From a virus (Duplodnaviria > Heunggongvirae > Uroviricota > Caudoviricetes), in the IMG/VR virus record IMGVR_UViG_3300021963_008171, positions 10,995 through 74,994 of that record: DNA of 64,000 nucleotides; one strand, written 5' to 3'. Below are positions 2,101-60,812 of the stretch, one piece after another. The translations under genes were made by a program, and so were the position numbers. Positions within the stretch are counted from its first letter, which is position 1, and each line of letters opens with the position of its first letter. The notes below the pieces were generated by a model. That model was not told the origin of the DNA. It was given only the letters and a program-made list of their open reading frames with translations, and searched no databases.

Positions 2101-2103
2101 GGA

Positions 2104-2322
2104 ATGATCCCAAACAAAGAATATCTAGATCAGATAGCAAAAAAATTAGATTCGTTTAATAAGATAAACGGTGTTGATCCAGGAATGCGCAGGGATTTAT
2201 ACAACGATAACTTTGATTTTATGGATCATGCAGGAAAGGCTGCGATTGAATACATGAACAGGAGAAAAGAAGAACCCCAAAATTTTATAGATCCTCTATT
2301 CACGGATCACAATAAATACTAA
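2104..2322 (+). CDS. hypothetical protein
   Basis: 72-aa ORF, tightly packed and co-directional. Confidence 0.35.
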   Translation: MIPNKEYLDQIAKKLDSFNKINGVDPGMRRDLYNDNFDFMDHAGKAAIEYMNRRKEEPQNFIDPLFTDHNKY

Positions 2323-2324
2323 TT

Positions 2325-2531
2325 ATGGATTTAAAAAAACTAGATCAAAAAACATTAAAAAAAGGCATAGCTGATAAGGGATGGAACATTCATCTACCAA
2401 ATCCATTAAAGCCTCAAGAAACCGTTTGGATTCATCAGGATCAAACCGGAATAGACACAAGGCAATACGTTAGAATAATACACTCAGAACCTAATGTTGT
2501 CTCAGTTTTTAGTAAAAGATATTTTGAATAA
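2325..2531 (+). CDS. hypothetical protein
   Basis: 68-aa ORF starting 3 nt after the previous stop. Confidence 0.35.
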   Translation: MDLKKLDQKTLKKGIADKGWNIHLPNPLKPQETVWIHQDQTGIDTRQYVRIIHSEPNVVSVFSKRYFE

Positions 2532-2544
2532 AAATATATAGAGC

Positions 2545-2994
2545 ATGGGATATGAAATTAAGTTAATAGCAGGGGAGATAGGGGCAACTAAGACCTTTAT
2601 TGAGATTGCAAGCGTGGATCTATCCAAGATAGGAAACGGTCCATTAGCTAAGCTCGTTGCATATTCTAAAGGTAAGGAAACACCAGATTTTAGTGATTGG
2701 AAATTTTTAAAGGACGTCAAAGGGTCACATCTAGGAATAGATCCATCCGCCTCTGAGATATTTGACATTGGAATGAATTATAACAACGTTGAGATTTGGG
2801 ACGGTGATGAAAAAATAGGCGAAGATCTTTATGGAGATCCGCTCCCGGCAATCCCGGTTAAGCAGGTACTCGCTGCACTTCATGAGGAATTAAAATCTGA
2901 AAGATATAGAAGATTTGAACTTGCAAAACAGCTTCTCGAAGAACTCTCTACATCCAAATGGGATAACATTTTCGTAGTTCCCTACGGTCACTAG
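2545..2994 (+). CDS. hypothetical protein
   Basis: 149-aa ORF preceded by AAAATATATAGAGCATGG, an 18-mer identical to the one at 29182. Confidence 0.5.
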   Translation: MGYEIKLIAGEIGATKTFIEIASVDLSKIGNGPLAKLVAYSKGKETPDFSDWKFLKDVKGSHLGIDPSASEIFDIGMNYNNVEIWDGDEKIGEDLYGDPLPAIPVKQVLAALHEELKSERYRRFELAKQLLEELSTSKWDNIFVVPYGH

Positions 2995-3035
2995 AAATTT
3001 TGCAAACGGGGAATATATAGAAAAAAACCCCGATT

Positions 3036-6005: not shown

Positions 6006-6006
6006 T

Positions 6007-8301
6007 ATGAGATTTTTATTATTTATATTATTTTCTCTAATATCATTTTTAGGGTTCGGACAGAGTGTATCTGCTCCGGACTCTAAATCGTTTATACCAT
6101 CCACAACCGGCCAAGATGGGAGTGGATTCCAATTAAGTGGATTTAGTGCAACATCTACTTTATTAGCATCAATCAGTTTAATCAATCCATCAACAAATAC
6201 TACATTTTACCTTAACGATACACGAGGATTAATTGCCGCAAGTGGATTTACTTTAACGGGTAATAAAACTCGTTTAGTGGTATTGGGAACAATGTCAGAT
6301 ATTAATACTGCATTGGTATCTTTAAAAGTTAATACAGGTTCTGTAGTTGGTAATGTTCAATTATCGGTAGCGGCAACTGTAAACCCTGTTGGATTCTTTT
6401 ACAATGGAGTTAATGGACATTTTTACAAACCCATAACCGCAACCAATGAAAGAACTTCATACACACTTGCAAGAAGTAGGTCATTGCTAACTACATTCAA
6501 AGGACAGACAGGCTATTTGGTAACAATAACATCGGCTTCCGAAGATGCATTTATATTCGCAAATGTTCCTGCAACTAATGTATGGTTTGCTGCAACAGAT
6601 GAAATAAAAGATGGAACTTGGGTAATTGATGCTGGTCCTGAAAAAGGTACTGTGATGAAAACCTCAAATGGACAAACTAATGGAAACATTCCTGGCGTAT
6701 ATAACAACTGGGCACAAGGTGAACCAAATGGTAGTAATGGTAGTGAGAACTATGCAGTGGCAAAGTGGAATGGTGCTGCAAATTGGAACGATTTATCAAA
6801 CAATTGGAGTAATCCTTATGTAATTGAATACGGAACTTGGACTAACCCTGATGATGCAACATTTACTGAATTCTATACTAATAGTGTAACTCACTCAAAT
6901 GGGGAAGTATTGAGAGCAGCATTCAATGTTGATTTCGGAACTAATGTAGATGAAACAAAATTTTCAGCAAAAGCAAATACGTATGTAAATAATTTATGGG
7001 GTACAACAACTAACACATCAAGATCAATTAGTGGATTAGGTAAAGTAGATGTTACAAATGATTTGGATACTGTAAAGATTCAAAACGGAGGATACGTGGG
7101 TTCAATAGTAGGAGGGCAGGTAGAATGGTCTTATGTTAATTTTTATAACGGAGCAACCACACTTTACATTGACATGAGAAAGTTTGGTGCGATCGGTGCA
7201 AATTCTGTATCACACATTACACTCTTAGATGTATACAGTGGACCTGTTACCTTTTTAGGAAATGATGCAACCTGGGCAAGATATACGATACCCTCGACCC
7301 TTCCGAAAGTAACAAACGGAACGTCAACAAATTCACAATATATTCGCAACGCTGGATACGGAGATTATGCATTTATGTGTGAGATTTCATTTGAACTTAA
7401 TCGTGAATATAAACAACACGGAATAGAATTATCGTATACTAATCAAACAGATTTGAACACCCTGTATAATAGTATCGTTACTGTATCTGATGTGTTTATA
7501 GCATTTAAAGAATTATCAAATGGCGGGATATTTGGGGATCAAAGCGGATTGGAATTTACCAACGGTATTCAATTTATGAACGCAGATGTGGACGGTAATG
7601 GATTATTCAATGAATCCGACACGTATAAATTATTACAGCACCTAACTGGAGTTCAGCCATTAACACAAAATCCATTATTAACATTCTTGATGAAGCTTTA
7701 TAGCAAATCTGATTATGATGCAATTACAAAATCAAATTGGAACACAAGATTTAATTCTACGAGAAGTCTATTTCCATTTAGTTTAAATACGGGTACCCTT
7801 AATAACACATACAATGTGAACGTAACCTGGATAGGTGACGTAAACCTTTCTCATTCGGCACAACAAACTGCAAGCGGTGTTGCAACCAATTCATATAGAA
7901 GCATGAGCCTAATGACTAATACAACCACTAATGAAATAAATGCATCAATCATGGGTGAAAATGTTGGAGGTAAGGTTATAGTAACGATATCAGTAGACCC
8001 ATTACAGCAAGAATTAGTAGGAACCCAATTCCAGTTGAATTATGATAATACCTCGTTGGAATTTCAAAAAGTAGATTTTATAACAAAAGGTAATCCAACA
8101 AATTTTGGAACAGATAAAGGATCTTATATCACATTGGGATCATTAATCACTGATGGATCAACAATATTAGACAAAACAACAGAATATAAAATAACATTCG
8201 TACCAAAAATTGGATTAACTGGAACATTAGGGTTAACTTCTGTTTCAGCAACAGATGCTGTTAATAAAGCAGGAACTCAATTAAAAGTAAAATTAAACTA
8301 A
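6007..8301 (+). CDS. secreted C-type lectin domain protein (EPN/WND motifs)
   Basis: Signal peptide ending FGQ. The CRD-like segment has NWAQGEPNGSNGSENYAV and NWNDLSNNWSNPYVIEYG. C-terminal domain is shared with the previous gene. Confidence 0.6.
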   Translation: MRFLLFILFSLISFLGFGQSVSAPDSKSFIPSTTGQDGSGFQLSGFSATSTLLASISLINPSTNTTFYLNDTRGLIAASGFTLTGNKTRLVVLGTMSDINTALVSLKVNTGSVVGNVQLSVAATVNPVGFFYNGVNGHFYKPITATNERTSYTLARSRSLLTTFKGQTGYLVTITSASEDAFIFANVPATNVWFAATDEIKDGTWVIDAGPEKGTVMKTSNGQTNGNIPGVYNNWAQGEPNGSNGSENYAVAKWNGAANWNDLSNNWSNPYVIEYGTWTNPDDATFTEFYTNSVTHSNGEVLRAAFNVDFGTNVDETKFSAKANTYVNNLWGTTTNTSRSISGLGKVDVTNDLDTVKIQNGGYVGSIVGGQVEWSYVNFYNGATTLYIDMRKFGAIGANSVSHITLLDVYSGPVTFLGNDATWARYTIPSTLPKVTNGTSTNSQYIRNAGYGDYAFMCEISFELNREYKQHGIELSYTNQTDLNTLYNSIVTVSDVFIAFKELSNGGIFGDQSGLEFTNGIQFMNADVDGNGLFNESDTYKLLQHLTGVQPLTQNPLLTFLMKLYSKSDYDAITKSNWNTRFNSTRSLFPFSLNTGTLNNTYNVNVTWIGDVNLSHSAQQTASGVATNSYRSMSLMTNTTTNEINASIMGENVGGKVIVTISVDPLQQELVGTQFQLNYDNTSLEFQKVDFITKGNPTNFGTDKGSYITLGSLITDGSTILDKTTEYKITFVPKIGLTGTLGLTSVSATDAVNKAGTQLKVKLN

Positions 8302-9194
8302 TGAAAAGGATAACAATCATATTAATCTTACTTTTCATAGGGGTTTATTCTAAAGCACAAATTGTAAAACCTGATACGTTACAGCTTTCACCTAAAGAAT
8401 TGTTTGGTGAGAGTGATGATTGGAATGATATAGGTATATTACAATCCTATATTGATTTTTCAAAAGACGTTCTTTCATCCTCAAATCTATCTGTTGGTAT
8501 AATCGGAAAACAGGTGTCAAGTACTTTAAATCTGGGATACAGTAAATGGTCTAATAATGGAGTATGGGGACACTCATTTTCCACATCAATAAATCCGATA
8601 TGGAATTATTATGGTGTTGGTTATGGATTTAGTAGAAATACTGATAAGAGAACAACAACATTACAAACATTCTATTCAACTGATTTTGATTTTCAAAAAG
8701 ATATCAGTATTTCATTTATAGATGTTTTCAGGACAAAAAAGTTTGGGACATTTGGGTATAGCTTAATTGCATCAAAAACATTTTGGGGAACATATGAAGG
8801 AGCATGGGAAGGAAAATACACAGTTGATGCGAATGGTAATTTTTTGGATTTGATTTACCCACAAATGCCGGCATCATCCGAAATGATTTATAAAGGAATG
8901 TTAATGTACACATATACAATCAAAACAAAGAGAGTTAATATATCCCCACAAATATTTGCTATGAGCGACATCTATAAAGATTTTAAGGATGGTACCTCTT
9001 CGGATTTAGCATATCTTGATGATTTCAATTTGGATTTATATTATGGTACATCATTCGATTGGAAAATAACTAAAAGATTTGTTTTAAACACTAATATTAG
9101 ATTCAACAAAACGTGGGATAAATTAAGCGAGTCTGTTGGATATAAAAAAAGTAATCCAATAATGTTTATGATAGGAACAAACTTTCAATTTTAA
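8301..9194 (+). CDS. outer-membrane beta-barrel protein
   Basis: Signal peptide ending ...SKAQ and an alternating amphipathic pattern. The C-terminus ...MFMIGTNFQF ends in Phe. Confidence 0.5.
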   Translation: MKRITIILILLFIGVYSKAQIVKPDTLQLSPKELFGESDDWNDIGILQSYIDFSKDVLSSSNLSVGIIGKQVSSTLNLGYSKWSNNGVWGHSFSTSINPIWNYYGVGYGFSRNTDKRTTTLQTFYSTDFDFQKDISISFIDVFRTKKFGTFGYSLIASKTFWGTYEGAWEGKYTVDANGNFLDLIYPQMPASSEMIYKGMLMYTYTIKTKRVNISPQIFAMSDIYKDFKDGTSSDLAYLDDFNLDLYYGTSFDWKITKRFVLNTNIRFNKTWDKLSESVGYKKSNPIMFMIGTNFQF

Positions 9195-9197
9195 AAG

Positions 9198-9455
9198 ATG
9201 AAAAAAATATTAATTATATCATTTTTATTCTTAACAATATCATCTTGTACTAGTTACAAGATTAGGGTAATACAGTATGATGGAACTGGATATTCGTTGT
9301 ATTTGCCAATGAAAAAACACGGATTGGATAAATGGTACGATGATAACATTGTGTACTATTCTGAAGAGATGGCAAGGTTTAAAATTAAAAAATGGAAGAG
9401 TGAGGAATATCATTCGGATCCGTGGAAAAAACCAAAATACATTAAAATAAATTAA
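9198..9455 (+). CDS. small lipoprotein
   Basis: Lipobox LTISSC. Confidence 0.5.
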   Translation: MKKILIISFLFLTISSCTSYKIRVIQYDGTGYSLYLPMKKHGLDKWYDDNIVYYSEEMARFKIKKWKSEEYHSDPWKKPKYIKIN

Positions 9456-9799
9456 TGAAAAAGATATTATTCATATTTCTGATTTTACTGTATGGATGTA
9501 CTAAACCGGAGTTACCAACACCGGCACCGCCAGTCGAAAAAATATTTGATGTTGGGGAGAGTAGTGTTACCAATGGACAATCTTTGTATTTTGATTTACC
9601 ATCACCTGGAGTTTATATTTTATCCTTAATTGATAAAGAGACAAACCAAGTAATAAGCAGAGAAAAATTCGTGGGTCAGATTGGGGAGAATTCAAGAAAG
9701 ATCTATACCAATTCTATAAAATCACAAACGCTATATCTATTGTTGTCAGATTCTTCTAAAAACGAGATGAAAAGAACAACTATATTAATAAGAAAATAA
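9455..9799 (+). CDS. small lipoprotein
   Basis: Lipobox LLYGC; start overlaps the previous stop. Confidence 0.5.
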   Translation: MKKILFIFLILLYGCTKPELPTPAPPVEKIFDVGESSVTNGQSLYFDLPSPGVYILSLIDKETNQVISREKFVGQIGENSRKIYTNSIKSQTLYLLLSDSSKNEMKRTTILIRK

Positions 9800-9810
9800 A
9801 ATAAAAAGAA

Positions 9811-10185
9811 ATGAAAAAATCACTAATCTTCTCAATCTGCGTTATTCTATTTGCAGGATGTACAAAAGACGACATGCTAATTCCTATGCAGGAACAAATT
9901 AAACCAGAGCTTGCTATTCAAAACAGCGTGGGTATTAAATTAGAAACCCCATTTGTTTCCAAGGAAGTTTCAATGAACGTAAAATTGGAAAAGGAAGGTA
10001 CTGTAGTTATTAAAATAACTGACATATCAAATAGAGTTGTATCTAAGGAACAGGTTAATGTAAAGGCTGGAGATAATCTATTGAAAGTTTATACCTCTGC
10101 TTTACCATCTTCTTCATATAGAATTGGTATCTACGACTCTAGTAACAATCTTCTAGGAATAACAGACTTTAATAAGATAAACTAA
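9811..10185 (+). CDS. small lipoprotein
   Basis: Lipobox LFAGC. Confidence 0.5.
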   Translation: MKKSLIFSICVILFAGCTKDDMLIPMQEQIKPELAIQNSVGIKLETPFVSKEVSMNVKLEKEGTVVIKITDISNRVVSKEQVNVKAGDNLLKVYTSALPSSSYRIGIYDSSNNLLGITDFNKIN

Positions 10186-10223
10186 AAGATTATCTTAAAA
10201 TATTTGAGGCGGAGAAAAATTGA

Positions 10224-11669
10224 ATGAAGAAATTATTATTGTTCCTTTTATTGGTAGTAGCATCCTTTGCTGCTAGTGCACAGACCTTCACCCAGACCTA
10301 TGTGGATAAATGTACTGGGGAGCTCAAAGTTGTGGTGTCTGCTCCTATGCCCAATGGTGGAGTAATGATTTCTTTTTATAATCAAATGAAGATATTCACG
10401 AATGCGCAGGTCAATGACGGAACGGTTCAAAAATGGCTGAATCAAGTTTATACTGATTATAATACAAGACCTTGTCCAGTAAGTACTGTTGCTGTACAAA
10501 CAGTTCAACAAACTGTTGCACAAGCGGCATCAGCTGCTGCATCTGCTGCAGCTTCTTCCGCAGCAAGTAATGCAGCTTCATCTGCAGCTAGTTCTTCGGC
10601 ATCAGCTGCTGCTTCATCGTCTGCAAGTAGCGCTGCAAGTTCTTCTGCATCATCTTCTGCTAGTGCTTCTGCTGGTTCATCCGCGGGTGCTTCTGCTGGT
10701 TCATCAGGAGGTCCTTCTTCTCAAAGCTCAGGCGGATCTTCAGGTTCATCTAGCTCTAACGGGGAAAGTAAAAGTAGTGGATCATCATCAGGAGAATCAA
10801 AATCTGAAAGTAAAGCTGAATCAAAATCTGAAAGTAAATCAGAATCAAAATCCGAAAGTAAAAGTGAGGAGAAGAAAGAGGAAAGCAAATCTGAGAGTAA
10901 AAAAGAGGAGAAGAAAGAGGAGAATAAAAAAGAAGAAGAGAAGAAAAAAGAGGAGGAGAAAAAGAAAGAAGAGGAAAAGAAGAAGAAAGAAGAGGAAAAG
11001 AAGAAGAAACAATCCGTTAGTAATCCCACACTAGTTGCTTCCGATCTTGCAGTAACACAAGGAAATGACGGTAGATATTCTGCTATGATATCAACAGGTA
11101 TAAGCAAATCTTCCATGACGGGAACGGAAAGTTGGGGATTAACATCCATGATATGGACAACATTTGATCAATTTGCTTTGAATGGCGGATACACTAAAAT
11201 GAATTTCGAAAAAGGCAAATTAAAGAACATAGATTCATATTCTATGACATTAGCATACCTTCAGGGAAATATCATGATTATGCAGGGTTATACGCACATT
11301 AAACCGGATCCTAAGATAGGTACTTATGGATTTAACGTAGGAGTTGTTAGCTTATTATTAAAGGATGGAAATAAGTATACCTATTCTGCTTCTTTTTCGT
11401 CCATCGGATTTTGGACAAAGATTTATCAGGTAAATAAAAAAACATCAATAGCTCCTCAGGTTTTCGTAACAAGCTCCCCGATATCATGGAATCCAAACAC
11501 CAATCAAACCTTGGTAAACAGACATTACGGATATATGACAGGGTTTTCGTATGACTACAAATTAACTGGAAGATTCGGGCTTAATCTAAATTATAGATTT
11601 TCTGGATCAACCCAAGCGGGAACACCGATATTGCATAATTTTATGATAGGATCGAGGATTATGCTGTAG
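10224..11669 (+). CDS. secreted protein with long low-complexity linker and beta-barrel-like C-terminal domain
   Basis: Signal peptide ...ASAQ. The linker has an Ala/Ser-rich stretch, (SESK)n and (EEKKK)n tracts. The C-terminal ~200 aa resemble the 8301 protein (…FMIGSRIML versus …FMIGTNFQF). Confidence 0.55.
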   Translation: MKKLLLFLLLVVASFAASAQTFTQTYVDKCTGELKVVVSAPMPNGGVMISFYNQMKIFTNAQVNDGTVQKWLNQVYTDYNTRPCPVSTVAVQTVQQTVAQAASAAASAAASSAASNAASSAASSSASAAASSSASSAASSSASSSASASAGSSAGASAGSSGGPSSQSSGGSSGSSSSNGESKSSGSSSGESKSESKAESKSESKSESKSESKSEEKKEESKSESKKEEKKEENKKEEEKKKEEEKKKEEEKKKKEEEKKKKQSVSNPTLVASDLAVTQGNDGRYSAMISTGISKSSMTGTESWGLTSMIWTTFDQFALNGGYTKMNFEKGKLKNIDSYSMTLAYLQGNIMIMQGYTHIKPDPKIGTYGFNVGVVSLLLKDGNKYTYSASFSSIGFWTKIYQVNKKTSIAPQVFVTSSPISWNPNTNQTLVNRHYGYMTGFSYDYKLTGRFGLNLNYRFSGSTQAGTPILHNFMIGSRIML

Positions 11670-17966: not shown

Positions 17967-18375
17967 GGAGAACGTTGAAAAATCGTTTTTAAGTATGCTC
18001 GGATTAGAGTCCGGAGAGATTCTTTTTGAATCTCTCTGGAATCATTTTGTTGACCGGGGAGATTTTATTAATGTTGTTCTTTTAGACGGAAGTCCTCTTT
18101 ATAATAGCGAGGGATATCATTTAAAGCCAGTCTATTTGGATCCTGAAACCAGCGATAGCACGTATGATATATTTTATACGCCTTCGGAAATACCTGAGAA
18201 ATTCAGGGGCAAGATTGGTAATTACTACTATATCACAGGGAAAATAAGATTTATGGACGATGGTGGTCCCGCTTCAGATCTTATAGTATACGCAAGGAGA
18301 AAGAATAAAAACGGGGAATGGAAAAAATCCCACAATCAATTAATAGTCTATAAAATAAGACAAAAAGAAGAATAG
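17938..18375 (+). CDS. hypothetical protein
   Basis: 145-aa ORF overlapping the previous stop. Confidence 0.4.
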   Translation: MNLMKTEITRENVEKSFLSMLGLESGEILFESLWNHFVDRGDFINVVLLDGSPLYNSEGYHLKPVYLDPETSDSTYDIFYTPSEIPEKFRGKIGNYYYITGKIRFMDDGGPASDLIVYARRKNKNGEWKKSHNQLIVYKIRQKEE

Positions 18376-21943: not shown

Positions 21944-22426
21944 ATGGAAGTGAGAATTTACATAGATCTTGACGGCACAGTGTGCGATCTTAAATCTGCA
22001 GTTAATAAATACAGGGAGCAGAATTCGAACGACATCGAATCGATCAACTACAAATATCCGTGGTCTATACCCGGATTTTTTCTTGATCTGCAACCACTTC
22101 CTCTAGCAATAGAATCCGTTAATTTTCTAAAGAAAAATCACGATGTTTGGTTCTTGAGTAGACCATCTTTTAAAAACACAAACTCTTATACGGAAAAGGC
22201 AGAATGGGTCAAAAAACATTTTGGCTATGAGATGCAGAGAAAATTAATATTATGTGGGGATAAATCTCTACTAAAAGGAAAGATCCTAATCGACGATGCA
22301 GAAAATGCTAAGCAAGATATGTTTGACGGAGTGTGGTTAAAGATAGGATCCGAGCAATATCCTGATTGGGAAAGCATTCTCCCGAGGATCCAAGAAATAT
22401 CAGAATTGGGGATAAATAGCTTATAA
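21944..22426 (+). CDS. 5'(3')-deoxyribonucleotidase (NT5C-like HAD hydrolase)
   Basis: IYIDLDGTVCDL (HAD motif I) close to the N-terminus; 160 aa, typical NT5C size. Confidence 0.55.
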   Translation: MEVRIYIDLDGTVCDLKSAVNKYREQNSNDIESINYKYPWSIPGFFLDLQPLPLAIESVNFLKKNHDVWFLSRPSFKNTNSYTEKAEWVKKHFGYEMQRKLILCGDKSLLKGKILIDDAENAKQDMFDGVWLKIGSEQYPDWESILPRIQEISELGINSL

Positions 22427-22435
22427 GATTTTCTT

Positions 22436-22741
22436 ATGGCTAGAATGATTAGAAGATTCAGTTTCGACTCTGGTGATGTTACACTAGACACCCTAGTTGG
22501 CACTAACGACAGAGAAATAGTATATGAGATACTGAGAGGAATATTTTATGGGATTGCATCGGGGCATGAATCAGTAGAACTCTTTGAAATCAAAACAGTT
22601 TGCGGTAATCAGGTTTTTGCAATAAACAGAAAGCAATGGGGTAAAGCTCTGGAGAGATGTTTGGAATCCATGATAGAGGAGGAGGATTATGAGACGTGCT
22701 CTGAAATACAAAAAGCTTTAGATATAGTTAAGAATATATAA
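22436..22741 (+). CDS. hypothetical protein
   Basis: 101-aa ORF. Confidence 0.35.
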   Translation: MARMIRRFSFDSGDVTLDTLVGTNDREIVYEILRGIFYGIASGHESVELFEIKTVCGNQVFAINRKQWGKALERCLESMIEEEDYETCSEIQKALDIVKNI

Positions 22742-22745
22742 GGTA

Positions 22746-22988
22746 ATGAAGCATATTAGAATTTTTGAAGAGTACGATCCTAATTACAATCCTTATCCTT
22801 ATAAGGTTCTTAATCCTGGGCAGATCCAGCACTATCGTCAAGTTTTTAGACTTAGACCTGCCAAAGATGTAGACTATGCCTGGAAAATACTTGATACGGT
22901 CGAGAAAAACGAAGGTAAGGTTTCACTTAAGCAGTGGAATGTAATCCAAAGAACATATCACGGAGGAAATTATCCGGTTAATTATTAA
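22746..22988 (+). CDS. hypothetical protein, MKHxxxF family
   Basis: MKHIRIFEEY...; preceded by GAATATATAAGG at 22733-22744. Confidence 0.45.
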   Translation: MKHIRIFEEYDPNYNPYPYKVLNPGQIQHYRQVFRLRPAKDVDYAWKILDTVEKNEGKVSLKQWNVIQRTYHGGNYPVNY

Positions 22989-23629
22989 TGAAGCACCTAT
23001 TAGAATATCTTGATTTCAGTGAGCTTTCCCCGGAAGCAGCAAACAATGCCATAGAAAAGGTCAGACAGGAAAGATACGAAGATTATGATATTTGTGATTG
23101 GGTAGTTGATGATTCTGAATTATTCGAGCCGCCACATAAAGAAATGTCACAGCTTTTTGGGGAGGATTATTATGAATCCAATGGAGATCGATTCATGATC
23201 GAGAATGAATCACCCAAAAAAATCAGCTTTGTTGGAAAACAGGATCAGAACCACTACCTCCACTGCTCAAAGGCGATGGAAGTAAGTAATGACAATCTTT
23301 TTTTAAGATGGCTAGGTATACCCCCAAAATTTTTTAAATATATTTATTATTCATTTATAGACGGGGGACTTGGATATTCTGGCTCAAATACTGCAATAGC
23401 TTTTGAAATCGAAGACCATCAAGAGTTTGAAGAAAGATTCGGGTCACAAGGAGAAACAATCCTCGCAGAGTATTTTGAAAAAGCAGAAAAGAAATTTGAT
23501 TCACACATGGATTATGTTCTGACCAAGATCTCATCTTGCATAGATTCCCAATACGAAGACGATGCAATAATAGACCACATAGAATCCAATGAGATTACCT
23601 TTGACGAAGAAGGCAATCCAATAAGATAG
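22988..23629 (+). CDS. hypothetical acidic protein, MKHL family
   Basis: MKHLLEYLDFSEL...; 213 aa. Confidence 0.45.
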   Translation: MKHLLEYLDFSELSPEAANNAIEKVRQERYEDYDICDWVVDDSELFEPPHKEMSQLFGEDYYESNGDRFMIENESPKKISFVGKQDQNHYLHCSKAMEVSNDNLFLRWLGIPPKFFKYIYYSFIDGGLGYSGSNTAIAFEIEDHQEFEERFGSQGETILAEYFEKAEKKFDSHMDYVLTKISSCIDSQYEDDAIIDHIESNEITFDEEGNPIR

Positions 23630-23693
23630 TTACATTTTAAAGTTCGGGGAAATTATTTTATATTTGTAGATATAATATGTTAAACCCGAAGAA

Positions 23694-24431
23694 TTGAGCC
23701 AGAAAGATATAAATTTTGATAGATTAAAATTAGATCCGTCTGATGGAATTCTAAAGATAACAAAATCCAAACAATTTAAGGAAATACCATATATTGATGT
23801 TAATCAACACATCGAGGAATCTGTCATTTGGGCTGTTAAGAACGAATTTCAAAGAAACGGAAGGGTTCTTGATAAAGTGATAAAAAATTCAATCATCGGA
23901 AAACTTGGTGAATTTGCAGTCTATCATTTTTTAGATAGAATGGGATATCTTCCTGGATATCCAGATCTTAGAATAATAGAAAAAGGCGAAAGCAAGAATG
24001 ACGGTGGATACGATCTAAAAATTCTTAATAAGTATTACATCAACGTAAAAACATCAACAGGAGGATCCAATACACTTCTCTTAAAAAAAAGTCATTTCGA
24101 TTCCTTGGGAAATTGTGTATATAGAAAATCACCAGAAGATCCTCCGTGCCAATATTTTTTTCTATGCAGGATAAATCCAGATCTAAAAAAAATTAATCTG
24201 GATGATTGGACTGATATCGATTCCGTTGCTAGAGAACTATCACAATTAAGATTTAGGTGTGACATACCTGGATTTTTGACAATAGATGATTTTAGAAAAA
24301 TCATCTTAGAGAAGGTCACAATAAATACTGGACAAATGTTAGCAGTGAAGGATTTTAAATTCGACGAGGATAACTATTATTGTCAGACTGGAAATCTTAG
24401 AGATATAGAACAAATTAAAAAATATGGTTGA
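23694..24431 (+). CDS. hypothetical protein
   Basis: 245-aa ORF with a TATATTTG -7-like box at about 23665. Confidence 0.45.
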   Translation: MSQKDINFDRLKLDPSDGILKITKSKQFKEIPYIDVNQHIEESVIWAVKNEFQRNGRVLDKVIKNSIIGKLGEFAVYHFLDRMGYLPGYPDLRIIEKGESKNDGGYDLKILNKYYINVKTSTGGSNTLLLKKSHFDSLGNCVYRKSPEDPPCQYFFLCRINPDLKKINLDDWTDIDSVARELSQLRFRCDIPGFLTIDDFRKIILEKVTINTGQMLAVKDFKFDEDNYYCQTGNLRDIEQIKKYG

Positions 24432-25134
24432 TATAGTAATACTTAGTTGCTCTGCAAATGATGAATTAAAAAAGCAAACTACCGATTGCCTCGATTCCCT
24501 ATTTTTATCAGAGAACGATTCGGAAAATTTATTCAACGTCATAGTATTGGAATCCGAAGATTCCGTTAATTGGAATTCTTATCCAAACACCAAAACATAT
24601 AAATCTCCAGAGCCATATGGATACCACAAGTACATGAACTATGGCAGAAAACTTGGAATCAATGAATATGTCTGCTTATGTAATAATGATCTCATATTTT
24701 ATAAGGGATGGGCTTCTCATATTCTAGAATTATCTAAGGCACACCCAGGTATACTTTCATTTTCCCCAATATGTCCGAGAACCCAGCCTCTGTACGGAAT
24801 ACAACCAAATTCTGAAAATTATCTTGGATATGAAATAAGAAAGCATATTTCTGGTTGGTGCATATTTCAGAAAAGAGAAATTTATGAAATTATTGGGGAT
24901 CTTGACGAGAGCTTTACCCACTGGTTCTCTGATAATGATTATGCTTTAACCCTGTACACAAAAGGCATTCAGCACTGTTTAGTTACGCATTCCATAGTGG
25001 AACATCACGACAAAAATGTCGGAAAAACTGGACCTGCAGTATTATCAGACTCCGAGATGTATAATATGACAAGCGGAAGCCAAGATTTATTCACTAGGAA
25101 ATGGGATTCCTATTTCTCACAAATCGGTAAATAA
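24424..25134 (+). CDS. putative glycosyltransferase (GT-A / GT2-like)
   Basis: N-terminal DIVILSCSANDEL and downstream NNDL; weak motif-level call. Confidence 0.4.
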   Translation: MVDIVILSCSANDELKKQTTDCLDSLFLSENDSENLFNVIVLESEDSVNWNSYPNTKTYKSPEPYGYHKYMNYGRKLGINEYVCLCNNDLIFYKGWASHILELSKAHPGILSFSPICPRTQPLYGIQPNSENYLGYEIRKHISGWCIFQKREIYEIIGDLDESFTHWFSDNDYALTLYTKGIQHCLVTHSIVEHHDKNVGKTGPAVLSDSEMYNMTSGSQDLFTRKWDSYFSQIGK

Positions 25135-25193
25135 TTCAGATTTATTTGAAAATCCAAACAGGTTTTGATCTATAGTAATGAATATGGATTTTA

Positions 25194-25682
25194 ATGTTTA
25201 GGATATCCTTTAGAATTTCACCATTCCAAGAATTTAACGTTGGATCCCTGGTTGCTTACCGGGACGAAAATCTAGTGGATTACATAAGGGAAACCCTTTA
25301 TTCTAGATCCAATTTTTTCTACATTGAATCAGTTGATTGGCAAAAATATGAATGCAAAATATCTAATGGTATAGACTCTATCATGTCAACCCCAGACCAA
25401 CTCATAGAGGTGGTTTCTTATATAGAAAAGATCGAGATGAACGGAATAAGATCTATGAAATTTTCAGAGAATACCGTTGAAAATGTTGCTAGATGGCAAG
25501 ATGATTTTGACAATAGAGAATCCTATATTTTGGAGGATCAAAAAATGGGAGTATTTCTCGAAAATGTTGAAATACCGAGGGATTATTTTTCCTTAGCGAA
25601 TAAAATAATTAATGTCAATTCCAAGATTAAAAATTATATAGTTGCCCGGTTTGACGACGAGGTAATTCATAGTCTCCTTTGA
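25194..25682 (+). CDS. hypothetical protein
   Basis: 162-aa ORF. Confidence 0.4.
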   Translation: MFRISFRISPFQEFNVGSLVAYRDENLVDYIRETLYSRSNFFYIESVDWQKYECKISNGIDSIMSTPDQLIEVVSYIEKIEMNGIRSMKFSENTVENVARWQDDFDNRESYILEDQKMGVFLENVEIPRDYFSLANKIINVNSKIKNYIVARFDDEVIHSLL

Positions 25683-25725
25683 GATAGATACAAGAATCAA
25701 TCAGATAAAATATAAATTTAGAAAA

Positions 25726-26025
25726 ATGACAGAATTGCAAGGTGACAATTTCGAAAGTGCTGTTTCTTCAGCCAAAAAATGTTTAGTAGATTTTTATGCA
25801 ACTTGGTGTGGGCCGTGCAGAGCTATGAATCCGGTTTTAGAAAGTGTAGAGAGTGAATTGGGTGCAGATATTATTTTTAAAATTGACGTTGATAAAAATA
25901 GAGAATTGGTTGAAAAATACGGAATTAGATCCGTTCCAACTTTTATATTTTTTGAAGATGGGGAAGAAAAGGAAAGAAAAAGCGGAGCGATCCCTAAAGG
26001 ATATTTAATAGAATCTTTATCATAA
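25726..26025 (+). CDS. trx: thioredoxin
   Basis: WCGPC active site and ...RSVPTFIFF...; 99 aa. Confidence 0.8.
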   Translation: MTELQGDNFESAVSSAKKCLVDFYATWCGPCRAMNPVLESVESELGADIIFKIDVDKNRELVEKYGIRSVPTFIFFEDGEEKERKSGAIPKGYLIESLS

Positions 26026-26315
26026 TGGAAAAAATTAAATCATTTAATTCATTTCTTAGCGAGGGAAATAAATCAGGAGAGATGACACCTGATGAGGTAT
26101 ACCAAAGAGCCTCTTCACACAAAAAGTGGTATCATCTTGAAGATTTTGAAAAAGAATTAAAGGCAGGAATAGCAGTGGAAATGGAACACACCAATGACCA
26201 AGAAACCGCTAGAAGAATTGCATTGGATCATCTTTATGAAGATCCCGAATACTATGAAAAATTAGCTAAAGCTGGTTTAATCGATGAACCAGACGCATTG
26301 AAAAATTTGGAATAA
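26025..26315 (+). CDS. hypothetical protein (MEKIKSFNSF.., related to the MKHL family)
   Basis: 96-aa ORF; ATG overlaps the thioredoxin stop. Confidence 0.4.
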   Translation: MEKIKSFNSFLSEGNKSGEMTPDEVYQRASSHKKWYHLEDFEKELKAGIAVEMEHTNDQETARRIALDHLYEDPEYYEKLAKAGLIDEPDALKNLE

Positions 26316-26399
26316 TTTTTCAAAACATTTTTATTTCTCAGGAAACTATCATAGATTTGCATATATAAACATCTAAAGAAAAAGTTCTTTAAAATATTG

Positions 26400-26760
26400 G
26401 TTGTTAAAGTTGAAGCGGCAGAATTGGATACATCAAAATCAATTATGCAAGGAACGAATTTGATCTCGTATCAAATTTATCCAAACACCATCTTATCCGG
26501 TCTAATAGGATGAGATACGTCAGACACTAGCTGGATGACGGTAAATTTAGATATTTCTGAATAGAAATTCGGGGCGGCTAACAGGCCTTAGGGGTTAGAG
26601 AATCGTTCACTTAATGGACAACCTCCAGATCTGGAGATTCTCATCTTTACAATAACCAATTAATAAAATACTATCCGACGCGGGATAGGGAGTTACTTCA
26701 CTGCAAACGAAACAACACTCCCTTTCAATATTCTCGGTAAGTTATTCTTATTAAATACAT
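26400..26760 (+). ncRNA. candidate structured ncRNA (Y-RNA-like?) upstream of the Ro60/TROVE gene
   Basis: The 26316-26844 interval has no ORF in a window that is otherwise about 95% coding. It holds a 14-nt perfect palindrome CTCCAGATCTGGAG flanked by AGAATC/GATTCT, a GGGAGT...ACTCCC stem, and gcATATATAAAc at 26359. Bacterial rsr genes are usually adjacent to Y RNAs. Confidence 0.3.
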
Positions 26761-26844
26761 TAAATTGTGTTTGCTTAAATATAGGAAGGCTTATCGACTC
26801 ACGTTGGTAAGCTTTTTTTTTTGCCAAAAATTTAAAACAAACAT

Positions 26845-28470
26845 ATGAGCAAGTTATCAGAGTACGCGGTTAAGTCCAAAACAGAAATTAGAAAATACGA
26901 GGATCTAGTTGTTGAGAATTTTATGGGGGGTAATTCCTATAAATTGTCACCGCTACAAACACTTAAAATAGTAGCTGCTAGCTCGATCTTCGGGGAGCCA
27001 CAGTACTATAGAGATGGGATAAAGAAGCAGGCTTCGATAAAGAACCATGATACCCTATTGAAATACTCAATATTTGCTGGCCTTATAGAAGGCTGTACCT
27101 CCGCAGCGGACGTTTTTACGAACGCTATTGATGCAGCCTTAGATTATGACTTCAAGGGAACTTTAGACTTAGCTACGGAGCTAAGAATGGTGTTTTTTAT
27201 GAGATTAAACCCAGCCGTCATATTTATACGTGCTTCTATCCATCCAAAAAGAGCAGAATTCAATGGATCCAACCCAGGATACATGAAAACTGTGGGCAAA
27301 TCCATAGCACTTAGACCCGATGATTTAACAAATCAGCTTGAATATTTCATGTACGTGAACAAGACAAAAAGCAAATTAAGCTCCATTGTTAAAAGAACCT
27401 GGGCAGAAAGACTTGGAGAGTATTCAAGATATCAACTAAACAAATACAAAGGCAAAAGTCTAATTGATCTTGTTAGAATTTCACACGCTTGGAATAATGA
27501 TATAGATGAGCTAATGAAGACCGGATCTATCAAGGTTGAAGAATCTGAAAGAACATGGGAAAATTTAAGGTCGGAGGGCAAGACATGGAAGGAGATTCTA
27601 GAAGCAATCGAAATCCCTCACATGGCTCTTTTGAGAAATCTGAGGGGAATCTTCAAAGAAATAGAGGATTTGGAGATTGCTAAATCCGTCATGACAAAAT
27701 TATCGGCTGGTGTTACTAAGGGAAATCAATTTCCATTTAGATATTGGTCTGCATATAAAGCGGTAGAGAAAGAAGAAATAAATCATAAAGGAGTCATTCT
27801 TGATGGATTAGAGGAGTGCATGGACATTTCAGTACTGAATATGCCAAAGCTTGATGGAAAAACTATATGTCTTTCCGATAATTCAGGATCTGCCTGGGGT
27901 CAGTTATCATCAGAATATGGAACGGTTTATGCAGCAGAGATAGCAAATCTTTCTTCACTGATTACTGGAAAACAATCCGACGAAGGCGAAATAGGTTTAT
28001 TCGGAGATCGCCTTATTGTAGAGTCAGTTTCTAAAAGAAATGGACTTCTATCTCAGTTAAAAGCTATCAATGAGGTGGAGAGAGATCATGGTAAATTGGG
28101 GGGAGGCACAGAGAATGGGATTTGGTTGTTCTTCGATGATGCAATCAAGAGTAAAAAACATTACGATAACATTTTTATCTATTCTGATATGCAAGCTGGA
28201 CATGGTGGGTTATATGGAACAGATTCTTCAGAATATAAAGATTTCTTACATGGAGATTGGAGGCATATAGATGTTCTAGCTCTTGTTTCTAAATATAGGA
28301 AAGACGTGAATCCCAAGGTGAATCTATTTTCCGTTCAAGTTGCTGGATATGACAATACAGTATTGCCGGAGAATCTTTATAGGGGAGCTATTTTAGCAGG
28401 ATGGACGGGTAAAGAGCCAGTTTTTGCTAAGGCGTTAATCGACACCTGGAACGAAATAGAAAATCGATAA
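26845..28470 (+). CDS. rsr: Ro60-like ribonucleoprotein (TROVE domain + vWA with MIDAS)
   Basis: The N-terminus ...ENFMGGNSYKLSPLQTLK...FGEPQYY fits the TROVE start. The C-terminal ...CLSDNSGSAWG is a DxSxS MIDAS. 541 aa, Ro60 size. Confidence 0.6.
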   Translation: MSKLSEYAVKSKTEIRKYEDLVVENFMGGNSYKLSPLQTLKIVAASSIFGEPQYYRDGIKKQASIKNHDTLLKYSIFAGLIEGCTSAADVFTNAIDAALDYDFKGTLDLATELRMVFFMRLNPAVIFIRASIHPKRAEFNGSNPGYMKTVGKSIALRPDDLTNQLEYFMYVNKTKSKLSSIVKRTWAERLGEYSRYQLNKYKGKSLIDLVRISHAWNNDIDELMKTGSIKVEESERTWENLRSEGKTWKEILEAIEIPHMALLRNLRGIFKEIEDLEIAKSVMTKLSAGVTKGNQFPFRYWSAYKAVEKEEINHKGVILDGLEECMDISVLNMPKLDGKTICLSDNSGSAWGQLSSEYGTVYAAEIANLSSLITGKQSDEGEIGLFGDRLIVESVSKRNGLLSQLKAINEVERDHGKLGGGTENGIWLFFDDAIKSKKHYDNIFIYSDMQAGHGGLYGTDSSEYKDFLHGDWRHIDVLALVSKYRKDVNPKVNLFSVQVAGYDNTVLPENLYRGAILAGWTGKEPVFAKALIDTWNEIENR

Positions 28471-28474
28471 TTAG

Positions 28475-28499
28475 TGGGATCTTACGATCCCATTTTTCT
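28475..28499 (+). terminator. rho-independent-like hairpin GGGATC-ttac-GATCCC followed by TTTTTCT
   Basis: Immediately 3' of the rsr stop; a promoter motif follows. Coordinates +/-1. Confidence 0.5.
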
Positions 28500-28509
28500 G
28501 ATATATAAA
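28500..28509 (+). promoter_or_regulatory. GATATATAAA motif abutting the ATG at 28512
   Basis: See motif family. Confidence 0.45.
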
Positions 28510-28511
28510 TC

Positions 28512-29192
28512 ATGAAGCACCTGAATACGTTCAATGAATCAATGAGATCCAACAACATTATTGTGGGTGGATCAAGTTTCAAAGATCCAAGAGACGGAAG
28601 AGAATATCAAACTGTTATACTTGATAACGGAAAAGAGAAAGTAGAATGGTTTGCGGAAAACTTAGATTATGATGACACTGATGACTTTGGTGGAAAATCT
28701 GCATTAGACATATTCTTTACTAATAATGATCTGCCATCGATCAAGGAGGATACAAACAGAAACACCTGCGGTAGATATTATAGATTCAATTCGTTGGTGA
28801 ACGCATGTCCAGAAGGATGGGAGATACCAGAAAGAAGTGAATTTATAGATCTTTTTAAAAAAATCACGGGAAAAGATCCACATTTATGGAGGGATCACGA
28901 TAGAACTGAAATATTTAAATCAGTTTGCGGGTTTAGATCCTCATTAGAATTGACAATGTGCGGAAGCTATGAAAAACCAAGATATATGGGAACATCTTCT
29001 TTTGCAGGACAAAGACCGGATTCTAACGGATTTAATTTTAGCGGTAATAGGGATGGATATTATTGGTCAAGTACACCAGGTTCTATGAATAATGGAGGCG
29101 CAGTCTTTATATTCAGGGAGGATGAAAAAAAGTACCTAGAGGATGTTGGCTATGGTTATTACGCGGTTAGACCGATAAGAAAAAATATATAG
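28512..29192 (+). CDS. FISUMP-domain protein (Fibrobacter succinogenes major paralogous domain), MKHL N-terminus
   Basis: ...GYYWSSTPGSMNNGGAVFIFREDEKKYLEDVGYGYYAVRPIRK is the FISUMP signature. Confidence 0.55.
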   Translation: MKHLNTFNESMRSNNIIVGGSSFKDPRDGREYQTVILDNGKEKVEWFAENLDYDDTDDFGGKSALDIFFTNNDLPSIKEDTNRNTCGRYYRFNSLVNACPEGWEIPERSEFIDLFKKITGKDPHLWRDHDRTEIFKSVCGFRSSLELTMCGSYEKPRYMGTSSFAGQRPDSNGFNFSGNRDGYYWSSTPGSMNNGGAVFIFREDEKKYLEDVGYGYYAVRPIRKNI

Positions 29193-60251: not shown

Positions 60252-60313
60252 GATTTACAAGAAACTAAATCTTCCTCCGAATATATAATCCTCAATTAGT
60301 TCTTTTAAATATT

Positions 60314-60725: not shown

Positions 60726-60737
60726 CAAATTTTATAT

Positions 60738-60812
<75 letters not shown>

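What the first reader, a model, noticed from the sequence alone, without database searches (positions are those of the whole stretch)
26316..28470. Ro60/TROVE-vWA protein with a 530-nt ORF-free structured upstream region: candidate Y-RNA module
The 541-aa protein has the TROVE N-terminal signature and a vWA MIDAS at the C-terminus, like Ro60/Rsr. Bacterial and phage rsr genes are almost always next to Y-RNA genes. The 26316-26844 gap is the largest non-coding stretch in the window. It contains a 14-nt perfect palindrome nested in a longer inverted repeat, several 6-bp stems and its own ATATATAAA promoter-like box. Bacterial Ro60 with Y RNA is known in few lineages. A viral copy could repurpose host RNA decay.
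Basis: partly seen in the sequence, partly recalled or inferred. Interest (0 to 1): 0.7.

Follow-up and report, generated by a model that had tools for sequence, protein, structure and literature searches.

The report
Phage Ro60 gene with two Y-like RNAs
A large environmental phage carries a copy of the RNA-quality-control protein Ro60, and just upstream of it a gene for a conserved, folded RNA of about 420 bases made of two Y-RNA-like units; this pairing is already known in phages, but these units lack the usual tRNA-like part.

Summary
ORF 26845-28470 is a Ro60/Rsr ortholog: Pfam TROVE hit, invariant MIDAS residues, and a predicted fold that matches all solved Ro60 structures. The 529-nt gap upstream is the longest stretch in the window without an ORF of 60 aa or more. 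It is not a spacer. It is conserved upstream of the TROVE gene in more than 30 related viral and metagenomic loci.

The gap holds a promoter-like motif shared only with the window's tmRNA gene, then two paralogous stem modules (26409-26645 and 26670-26742), then an intrinsic terminator (26789-22). Both modules follow one plan: closing stem, asymmetric internal loop (5'-NGCGG / 3'-RRNAUUC), second stem, then UACUUCA. Covariation supports this plan.

The same stem encloses the tRNA-like domain of the YrlA-like RNA of Bacillus phage G, and its layout parallels the Rfam YrlA consensus. The window RNA itself matches no Rfam Y RNA family and has no tRNA-like domain. Module 1 carries a multi-hairpin insert of about 190 nt instead.

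Verdict: these are Y-RNA-like partners of a phage Ro60, a new variant of a known kind. Ro60 binding and any effector recruitment are inferred, not shown.

The parts
26362..26368 (+).
   Evidence: It is conserved as (G)ATATATAA in alignment A1. Similar boxes lie just before several + strand gene starts and before the tmRNA gene. The octamer is not enriched overall. A promoter role is inferred.
26383..26400 (+). AGTTCTTTAAAATATTGG, a promoter-like motif for ncRNA genes that contains a -10-like TAAAAT (26390-26395)
   Evidence: Exact copies of AGTTCTTTNAAATATTGG occur only here and at 60298-60315, directly 5' of the tmRNA gene. Shuffles give a mean of 0.99 matches even when 3 mismatches are allowed. 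The motif is nearly invariant in the close relatives. In distant relatives GTTCTT plus TAAAAT or TACAAT is kept 12-15 nt before stem 1.
26409..26645 (+). Y-like module 1. Layout: stem 1 GUUGA (26409-13) with UCAUC (26641-45); internal loop AGCGG (26414-18) opposite GAGAUUC (26634-40); stem 2 CAGAAUUGG (26419-27) with CCAGAUCUG (26625-33); UACAUCAA (26429-36); multi-hairpin insert of about 190 nt (26437-26620).
   Evidence: Stem 1 is 99% paired across 24 sequences, with several covarying forms. Stem 2 duplex energy is -7.2 kcal/mol with its own partner and -3.7 +/- 2.3 with the partners of other sequences. RNAalifold on 12 close relatives recovers both stems and four inner hairpins; 20 of 38 pairs show compensatory changes. 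Model R1 matches the 5' half at 21.4 bits, E 0.003.
26605..26619 (+). Conserved hairpin inside the module 1 insert: GUUCA-CUUAA-UGGAC
   Evidence: The 5-bp stem covaries (UA/CG, AU/CG) around a conserved C(U/G)UAA loop. It is present in nearly all relatives, including the distant ones.
26623..26636 (+). The 14-nt palindrome CTCCAGATCTGGAG: the 3' strand of stem 2 plus the start of the 3' loop, which can form an alternative local hairpin
   Evidence: It is not conserved as a perfect palindrome (relatives have, for example, CCCAAACTGGG). A local hairpin is still possible in 15 of 17 unique sequences (mean -3.7 kcal/mol against -0.5 for shuffles). That hairpin and stem 2 exclude each other.
26670..26742 (+). 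Y-like module 2. Layout: stem 1 ACUAUCCGA with UCGGUAAGU; internal loop CGCGG (26679-83) opposite AAUAUUC (26727-33); stem 2 GAUAGGGAGU with ACUCCCUUUC; A-rich apical loop of 23 nt starting with UACUUCA.
   Evidence: Alignment A2 (29 sequences): 82% of cells are paired, against 39-50% when partners are slid. 15 of 18 pairs have compensatory changes, and 0 of 500 shuffles reach the observed covariation score. Model R1 scores 84.2 bits, E 5e-20, the only strong match in the 64 kb.
26789..26822 (+). Intrinsic terminator: GCUUAUCGAC-UCAC-GUUGGUAAGC followed by U10
   Evidence: The sequence shows it directly. The stem covaries in relatives (GCUUAUCG to GCCUAUCG, with partners). Distant relatives have different GC hairpins followed by a T run at the same place. 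The simple scan did not list it.
26845..28470 (+). Ro60/Rsr ortholog (TROVE HEAT-repeat ring plus vWA domain with MIDAS), 541 aa
   Evidence: Pfam TROVE hit. AlphaFold2 model with pLDDT 80 and pTM 0.80. Foldseek matches: phiLo Ro60 9KOP (E 5e-15, TM 0.66/0.76), D. radiodurans Rsr 2NVO, Xenopus Ro 1YVP and human Ro60. MIDAS residues are invariant. More than 4000 homologs; the best named isolate is Bacillus phage G gp540 at 50% identity.
28473..28494 (+). Terminator-like hairpin that closes the unit
   Evidence: 9-bp stem followed by a T run, 3 nt after the stop codon.

Best explanation
The unit 26362-28494 pairs a non-coding RNA gene with a phage Ro60 gene.

The RNA is about 420 nt and is read on the + strand. 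It starts at a promoter-like motif that this phage also places in front of its tmRNA gene, and it ends at an intrinsic terminator 22 nt before the Ro60 start codon.

The RNA contains two paralogous Y-RNA-like modules. In each, the two ends pair into a closing stem. Next comes a conserved asymmetric internal loop (5'-NGCGG, preceded by (C/U)GA, opposite 3'-RRNAUUC), then a second stem, then a conserved UACUUCA. This region corresponds to the Rsr-binding region of bacterial YrlA RNAs and is the likely docking site for the adjacent Ro60.

The apical part differs between the modules. Module 2 has a short A-rich loop, like YrlB-type Y RNAs. Module 1 has a conserved multi-hairpin domain of about 190 nt where YrlA has its tRNA-like domain.

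By analogy with D. radiodurans, Salmonella and Thermus phage phiLo, the RNAs would gate Ro60 or tether it to a host partner such as PNPase. That would redirect host RNA decay or quality control during infection. Ro60 mRNA most likely arises by read-through of the terminator, which would set the ratio of RNA to protein.

Shown here: the protein's identity; the conservation, strand and secondary structure of the RNA; its linkage to TROVE genes; and the shared stem with the phage G YrlA-like RNA.
Inferred: transcription, processing, Ro60 binding, the effector, and terminator read-through.
For: Protein. Pfam TROVE hit. The predicted fold matches every solved Ro60. MIDAS residues are invariant.

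Linkage. Every related locus examined that includes sequence upstream of the gene carries the RNA upstream on the same strand. This covers the viral loci, including L009 and L011; L007 has no upstream sequence. It also covers 6 of 6 contigs fetched through more distant proteins of 65-74% identity. The same module type sits next to TROVE relatives of 39-55% identity in MAG contigs.

Structure. Module 2 covariation: 82% paired against 39-50% for slid partners, 15 of 18 pairs compensatory, 0 of 500 shuffles. Module 1 stems.

Strand. The + strand folds with z = -5.9 against -2.2 for the - strand, G-U pairs are present in the stems, and the terminator runs in the + direction.

Link to Y RNAs. Model R1 was built from module 2 and two short phage G modules, not from the phage G YrlA-like RNA. 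It hits phage G 777-937 at 38.3 bits, E 2e-7. That span encloses the Rfam YrlA hit to the tRNA-like domain at 820-906 (36.2 bits). The Rfam YrlA consensus has the same plan: a stem ending in CGA, a 5-nt loop on the 5' side opposite an 8-nt loop on the 3' side, then a 7-bp stem. Chen et al. define GNCGAAN0-1G near the 5' end as the likely Rsr site (PMC4201824); relatives here read UCCGAAGCGG or UUCGAAGCGG. Phage phiLo Ro60 binds two Y-like RNAs encoded upstream of its gene (PMC12135203).

Trans action. In L009, L126, L129 and L130 another ORF lies between the RNA and the TROVE gene.
Against: No Rfam Y RNA family (Y_RNA, YrlA, Deinococcus_Y_RNA) matches the region at E up to 10, or the whole window at E up to 1.

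There is no tRNA-like domain, although Chen et al. found one in at least one Y RNA of every species they examined.

In the window itself the motif is CCGAC-G in module 2 and UUGAA-G in module 1, so neither is an exact GNCGAA.

Module 1 (237 nt) is about twice the usual Y RNA length.

Model R1 does not match the experimentally bound phiLo Yrl RNAs.

There is no expression or binding data. Phage G's YrlA-like hit is itself below Rfam's gathering score (36 against 69 bits).
Confidence: 0.75

Rival explanations
1. The structured region is a cis-acting leader of the Ro60 mRNA. Ro60 would bind the two stem modules in its own 5' leader and control termination at 26789-26822, or translation, as autoregulation. 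It would not be a trans-acting Y RNA.
For: Only 22 nt without an obvious promoter or Shine-Dalgarno sequence separate the terminator from the ATG. Ro60 expression therefore probably depends on read-through from the RNA's promoter. The RNA is always on the same strand and upstream in the close family.
Against: In L009, L126, L129 and L130 a separate ORF of 134-313 aa sits between the RNA and the TROVE gene. In L139 and L141 modules also lie downstream of the gene. In phage G one module is 2 kb away, beyond another gene. L074 and L123 carry module arrays with no TROVE relative within 10 kb. The two roles do not exclude each other.
Confidence: 0.12
2. The RNA is a phage non-coding RNA whose function is unrelated to Ro60. 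Examples would be a processing by-product of a tRNA cluster, a decoy for a host nuclease or defence system, or a regulatory sRNA. On this view it merely shares a genomic neighbourhood with the TROVE gene.
For: No Rfam Y RNA match. In L129 and L130 the RNA directly follows a tRNA-Met, and in L074 the modules are interleaved with tRNAs. It shares a promoter-like motif with the tmRNA gene. L074 and L123 have modules but no TROVE relative in the DNA fetched.
Against: Linkage to TROVE holds across 39-97% protein identity, in viral contigs, metagenomes and MAGs. The stem layout and the CGAAG motif parallel the YrlA consensus. The same stem carries the tRNA-like domain in phage G.
Confidence: 0.1
3. 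The gap is only a promoter and terminator spacer, or a DNA-level element such as an origin or a protein-binding inverted repeat, with no functional RNA.
For: The gap contains promoter-like boxes, a terminator and a perfect palindrome.
Against: There are many compensatory base changes in four or more helices, with G-U pairs that work only on the + strand. The gap is conserved more strongly than a spacer would be, down to 65% protein identity. The palindrome itself is not conserved.
Confidence: 0.03

Closest known systems
YrlA-like RNA and Ro60 (gp540) of Bacillus phage G (Rfam RF02553 YrlA; Chen et al. 2014, PMC4201824)
   Same: The TROVE proteins are 50% identical. The RNA lies upstream on the same strand. 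The stem is the same: (C/U)GA-AGCGG, stem 2 ending in GU, UACUUC, and a 3' loop AAUAAUC/AAUAUUC followed by UC. Model R1 matches it at 38 bits, E 2e-7. Several modules stand in tandem.
   Different: The phage G RNA encloses a clear tRNA-like domain with T arm and D arm. The window RNA has none. Module 1 encloses an unrelated multi-hairpin domain of about 190 nt and module 2 a 23-nt loop. Phage G has six modules and the window has two.
Salmonella YrlA/YrlB and D. radiodurans Yrn1 with Rsr (RYPER complex with PNPase)
   Same: A Ro60 ortholog with adjacent Y RNAs on the same strand. The plan is a closing stem, an asymmetric internal loop next to a CGAA-type motif, and a second stem. One RNA has a large effector domain and one is short, as with YrlA and YrlB.
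   Different: There is no Rfam match. The loop sequences differ (AGCGG / AAUAUUC here, AUGCU / AAAACUUG in YrlA). No rtcBA genes are nearby. The host is a phage rather than a cell. The effector partner is unknown.
Thermus phage phiLo Ro60 with Yrl1 and Yrl2 (PDB 9KOP, 9L5Y; PMC12135203)
   Same: It is the closest solved structure. Two Y-like RNAs are encoded directly upstream of a phage Ro60 gene, and there binding to Ro60 and to host PNPase was shown in vitro.
   Different: The proteins are only about 22% identical. The phiLo RNAs do not match model R1 and have different sequences around their CGAA motifs.
Metazoan Y RNAs (Rfam RF00019)
   Same: A terminal stem with an internal loop or bulge. 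The 5' strand reads UCCGA, and GUCCGAAG in relative L033, identical to the GUCCGAAG I recall from human Y1 RNA (from memory, not checked with a tool).
   Different: No covariance-model match. The 3' strand, the loop and the length differ. The resemblance is short and could be convergent.

Membership tests
Ro60/Rsr protein (TROVE + vWA) | TROVE domain detectable by the Pfam profile above its curated cut-off | tested here: met
   PF05731, 27.7 bits against a cut-off of 23, E 2e-6.
Ro60/Rsr protein (TROVE + vWA) | Ring of HEAT-like helices closed by a vWA domain, superposable on solved Ro60 structures | tested here: met
   AlphaFold2 model with pLDDT 80 and pTM 0.80. The top 12 Foldseek PDB hits are all Ro60 or Rsr (9KOP, 9L5Y, 9NF8, 2NVO, 1YVP, 2I91, 9NEN), with E from 5e-15 to 1e-9.
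Ro60/Rsr protein (TROVE + vWA) | MIDAS motif DxSxS...T...D in the vWA domain | tested here: met
   D345, S347, S349, T422 and D448 are invariant in 42 homologs.
Y RNA (general definition) | Encoded within 4 kb of the Ro60 gene, on the same strand | tested here: met
   The RNA ends 22 nt before the ATG, on the same strand. This linkage is kept in more than 30 loci.
Y RNA (general definition) | The 5' and 3' ends pair into a long stem interrupted by an internal loop or bulge | tested here: met
   Covariation supports this in both modules.
Y RNA (general definition) | Conserved Ro-binding motif on the 5' strand (bacterial GNCGAAN0-1G, metazoan GGUCCGA) | tested here: inconclusive
   The window has AUCCGACG in module 2 and GUUGAAG in module 1. 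Relatives have UCCGAAG, UUCGAAG or GUCCGAAG. The motif is similar but not an exact match in the window itself.
Y RNA (general definition) | Length of about 80-130 nt | tested here: inconclusive
   Module 2 is 73 nt (26670-26742), just under this range. Module 1 is 237 nt, well above it. Both probably lie on one primary transcript of about 420 nt, and processing is unknown.
Y RNA (general definition) | Bound by Ro60 in vivo or in vitro | not testable with these tools
   This needs a gel-shift or immunoprecipitation experiment.
YrlA (Rfam RF02553) | Covariance-model score at or above the gathering score of 69 bits | tested here: not met
   No YrlA hit at E up to 10 in 26200-28650, 26395-26665 or 26655-26765, and none at E up to 1 in the whole window.
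YrlA (Rfam RF02553) | tRNA-like domain (T arm, D arm, acceptor-like stem) | tested here: not met
   No YrlA or tRNA model hit in the region, and ARAGORN finds only the tRNA-Met at 60738. The phage G RNA has this domain.
YrlA (Rfam RF02553) | Rsr-binding stem plan: a stem ending in CGA, a 5-nt loop opposite a 7-8-nt loop, then a second stem | tested here: met
   Comparison with the YrlA consensus printed. The stem is shared with the phage G YrlA-like RNA through model R1 (38.3 bits).
Metazoan Y_RNA (RF00019) and Deinococcus_Y_RNA (RF01053) | Covariance-model match | tested here: not met
   No hits.

The most novel reading that the evidence does not exclude
The conserved multi-hairpin domain of about 190 nt enclosed by the module 1 stem would be a new kind of Y RNA effector domain. 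It would replace the tRNA mimic of YrlA and recruit a different host or phage partner. In addition, the conserved local hairpin that competes with stem 2 would be a switch that is set when Ro60 captures the 5' strand. Together these would define a class of long, non-tRNA-like Y RNAs, widespread in environmental jumbo phages and absent from Rfam.
Probability: 0.35. Interest if true: 0.6.

Novelty: new variant of a known kind. Interest (0 to 1): 0.45.

Why it matters
Ro60-Y RNA particles are a conserved RNA-surveillance system, and their effector logic is known for only a few RNAs: tethering of PNPase in bacteria, and a tRNA mimic of unknown purpose in YrlA.

This work defines a Y-like stem motif that current Rfam models miss. 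The motif is linked to a TROVE clade with thousands of environmental, mostly phage-borne members.

It also shows that the same Ro60-docking stem can carry interchangeable apical domains: a tRNA-like domain in phage G, a 190-nt multi-hairpin domain here, or a short loop. That gives a concrete and testable handle on what phages use Ro60 for. It also supplies a covariance model for annotating these RNAs.

This extends known biology and does not open a new category.

Tried and rejected
1. Rfam scans of the region at gathering and at permissive thresholds gave only chance hits (pntA, ctRNA_p42d, a Tetrahymena snoRNA and mir families, all far below their gathering scores).
2. I first read the local hairpin CUAUCC-GACGCG-GGAUAG in module 2 as a stem. 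I dropped it because the outer pairs break in L003 and L004, while the long-range stem covaries.
3. The window's GAGAAUC/GAUUCUC inverted repeat around the palindrome is not compensated in the L003/L004 group, so I did not count it as a helix.
4. A third R1 hit at 18189-18283 (-), 13.8 bits, E 0.31, lies inside a 145-aa ORF on the other strand and lacks UACUUC. I take it as chance.
5. The loose pattern GTTACNTCA...ATTATTCTCNG in viral contigs returned 81 loci, most of them with no sign of the module.
6. Model R1 on the phage phiLo locus gave no match to its Yrl RNAs.
7. The supplementary tables of Chen et al., which hold the phage G coordinates, are not available as text.
8. I looked for RNA-repair genes (RtcB, RNA ligase) next to the locus and found none among the ten flanking ORFs scanned. 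Those with a Pfam match are NT5C, thioredoxin, DUF5661, Fib_succ_major and DUF6734.
9. I did not identify the phage lineage or its host.
Full report
**Observation.** ORF 26845-28470 (+) encodes 541 aa. It matches Pfam TROVE above the curated cut-off (27.7 against 23 bits). Its best matches among solved structures by sequence are the two entries for Thermus phage phiLo Ro60 (E 3e-15). The vWA MIDAS residues D345-x-S347-x-S349, T422 and D448 are present and invariant across 42 homologs. An AlphaFold2 model (pLDDT 80, pTM 0.80) superposes on every solved Ro60: phiLo 9KOP (E 5e-15, TM 0.66/0.76), D. radiodurans Rsr 2NVO, Xenopus 1YVP and human Ro60.

The 529-nt gap 26316-26844 is the longest stretch of the window with no ORF of 60 aa or more. 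The palindrome CTCCAGATCTGGAG is at 26623-26636 and ATATATAA is at 26361-26368. The + strand of the gap folds far better than shuffled sequence (z = -5.9), and the - strand does not (z = -2.2).

**The gap is a conserved RNA gene.** Twelve IMG/VR loci encode relatives of 65-89% identity. In every locus that includes upstream sequence, an ORF-free gap of about 500 nt precedes the gene, or precedes one small inserted ORF. The gap aligns with the window. Pattern scans and look-ups through more distant proteins raised this to 31 distinct versions.

The conserved blocks, in order, are:
- a TATATAA box;
- the motif AGTTCTTTAAAATATTGG, which contains a -10-like TAAAAT;
- two blocks that each contain (C/U)GA-NGCGG-N8-(G/A)UAC(U/A)UCA;
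- two blocks that each end in AUUCUC;
- a GC hairpin followed by a T run at 26789-26822.

The 18-nt motif occurs exactly twice in 64 kb: here, and directly in front of the tmRNA gene at 60314. This points to a shared promoter for non-coding RNA genes. A second terminator-like hairpin follows the Ro60 stop codon, so the unit is self-contained.

**Anatomy.** The RNA has two paralogous modules built to one plan.

Module 2 (26670-26742):
- stem 1, ACUAUCCGA with UCGGUAAGU;
- internal loop, CGCGG opposite AAUAUUC;
- stem 2, GAUAGGGAGU with ACUCCCUUUC;
- a 23-nt apical loop beginning with UACUUCA.

On 29 sequences this structure is 82% paired, against 39-50% when partners are slid. Fifteen of 18 pairs show compensatory changes, and none of 500 shuffles reaches the observed covariation score.

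Module 1 (26409-26645) has the same plan:
- stem 1, GUUGA with UCAUC;
- internal loop, AGCGG opposite GAGAUUC;
- stem 2, CAGAAUUGG with CCAGAUCUG;
- then UACAUCAA.

It encloses about 190 nt. Its stem 1 is 99% paired across 24 sequences, in several covarying forms. Its stem 2 strands bind their own partners better than the partners of other sequences (-7.2 against -3.7 +/- 2.3 kcal/mol). RNAalifold on 12 close relatives recovers both stems and four inner hairpins, with compensatory changes in 20 of 38 pairs. One of those hairpins, GUUCA-CUUAA-UGGAC at 26605-26619, is kept even in distant relatives.

It is not conserved as a palindrome. A competing local hairpin is still possible in 15 of 17 unique sequences, and I cannot explain that. 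It may be a switch.

**Link to Y RNAs.** Rfam gives no Y_RNA, YrlA or Deinococcus Y RNA match, either to the region at E up to 10 or to the whole window at E up to 1. The link comes through Bacillus phage G, the closest named relative (gp540, 50% identity).

Phage G has a sub-threshold YrlA hit (36.2 bits, E 1e-6 locally) to a clear tRNA-like domain at L013:820-906. That domain is flanked by CCUGA-AGCGG-UAAAAGCAGU-UACUUCGA on one side and ACUGUUUUA-AAUAAUC-UCAGG on the other, which is the window's stem. Covariance model R1 was built from module 2 and two short phage G modules. It hits this YrlA-like RNA as a whole (777-937, 38.3 bits, E 2e-7), and it hits four further modules (one only weakly, E 0.08) in the 1059-nt unannotated gap upstream of gp540.

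The Rfam YrlA consensus itself has a stem ending in CGA, a 5-nt loop on the 5' side opposite an 8-nt loop on the 3' side, and a 7-bp second stem before the tRNA-like domain. Chen et al. identify GNCGAAN0-1G near the 5' end as the probable Rsr contact (PMC4201824). Relatives here read UCCGAAGCGG or UUCGAAGCGG. The window reads CCGACGCGG and UUGAAGCGG.

Phage Ro60 with two upstream Y-like RNAs has been shown to form complexes in vitro, including with host PNPase, for phage phiLo (PMC12135203). The phiLo RNAs do not match R1.

R1-type modules also sit next to TROVE relatives of 39-55% identity in MAG contigs labelled Spirochaetes, Ruminococcus and Melioribacteraceae. The RNA-protein linkage therefore spans a wide range of divergence.

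**Mechanism.** I conclude that the gap encodes Y-RNA-like partners of the adjacent phage Ro60. The conserved stem and loop region would be the Ro60 docking site. The apical parts would be interchangeable effector or gating domains.

The following are inferences: transcription from the motif at 26383-26400; termination at 26822, with read-through supplying the Ro60 mRNA (only 22 nt without a promoter or Shine-Dalgarno sequence precede the ATG); processing into separate modules; Ro60 binding; and recruitment of a nuclease.

The main rival is a cis-acting autoregulatory leader. It is weakened by loci where another ORF separates the RNA from the TROVE gene and by modules found downstream of the gene or far from it. 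It is not excluded and could coexist with a trans role. A plain spacer or a DNA element is contradicted by the strand-specific covariation.

**Novelty.** Ro60 in jumbo phages and phage Y-like RNAs are both established (PMC4201824, PMC7824862, PMC12135203). The new points are:
- a stem motif that Rfam models miss;
- the absence of any tRNA-like domain in this lineage within the 64 kb examined;
- a conserved multi-hairpin domain of about 190 nt in its place;
- the tandem two-module transcript;
- the promoter-like motif shared with a phage tmRNA gene.

I rate it a new variant of a known kind, of moderate interest.

Noticed in passing
window 60314-60812: The phage-like window carries a tmRNA gene (Rfam RF00023, 80.4 bits, 60314-60728) immediately followed by a tRNA-Met (60738-60812). 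ARAGORN reports only the tRNA.
   Followed up: partly
window 26383-26400 and 60298-60315: The 18-nt motif AGTTCTTTNAAATATTGG occurs exactly twice in 64 kb, directly 5' of the Y-like RNA and of the tmRNA. If TAAATA is a -10 box, tmRNA transcription would start at its mature 5' end.
   Followed up: partly
L013 (Bacillus phage G, NC_023719) 1942-3000 and 777-937: The 1059-nt unannotated gap upstream of gp540 holds five tandem Y-like stem modules without a tRNA-like domain (about 2253-2341, 2454-2542, 2561-2666, 2685-2761 and 2790-2940). These are in addition to the YrlA-like RNA at 777-937. I could not check whether the extra modules were reported before.
   Followed up: partly
L074 about 5900-10280 (-) and L123 (-): Two viral contigs carry five or six of the same stem modules interleaved with an array of ten tRNA genes. 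No relative of this TROVE protein lies in the 9-10 kb fetched for each.
   Followed up: partly
L129 1552-1660, L130 1527-1620: In distant relatives a tRNA-Met gene ends no more than 26 nt before module 1, so the Y-like RNA sits at the end of the phage tRNA cluster. This suggests co-transcription and processing by tRNA-maturing enzymes.
   Followed up: no
window 26623-26640 and the same place in relatives (alignment A3): A local hairpin formed by the 3' strand of stem 2 and the 3' internal loop of module 1 is possible in 15 of 17 unique sequences, and its arms differ between relatives while remaining complementary. It cannot coexist with stem 2. Unexplained; possibly a conformational switch.
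   Followed up: partly
L133, L136, L139, L141 (GTDB genome contigs): R1-type modules lie next to TROVE relatives of 39-55% identity in MAG contigs labelled Melioribacteraceae, Spirochaetes and Ruminococcus. L141 has three tandem modules upstream of the gene and one downstream. I did not check whether these are prophages, mis-binned phage contigs or cellular loci.
   Followed up: no
L009 2580-2993, L129 2092-2496, L130 2061-2498, L126 1563-2504: In some relatives a small ORF (134-145 aa, no Pfam hit on record for L129 and L130) or a Methyltransf_21 gene is inserted between the Y-like RNA and the TROVE gene.
   Followed up: no
window 21944-26315 and 28512-29192: The flanking genes are typical phage auxiliary genes: NT5C deoxynucleotidase (21944-22426), thioredoxin (25726-26025), DUF5661 (26025-26315) and a Fib_succ_major domain protein (28512-29192). 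Most gene starts lack a Shine-Dalgarno sequence, and several are preceded within 3-15 nt by TATATAA.
   Followed up: partly
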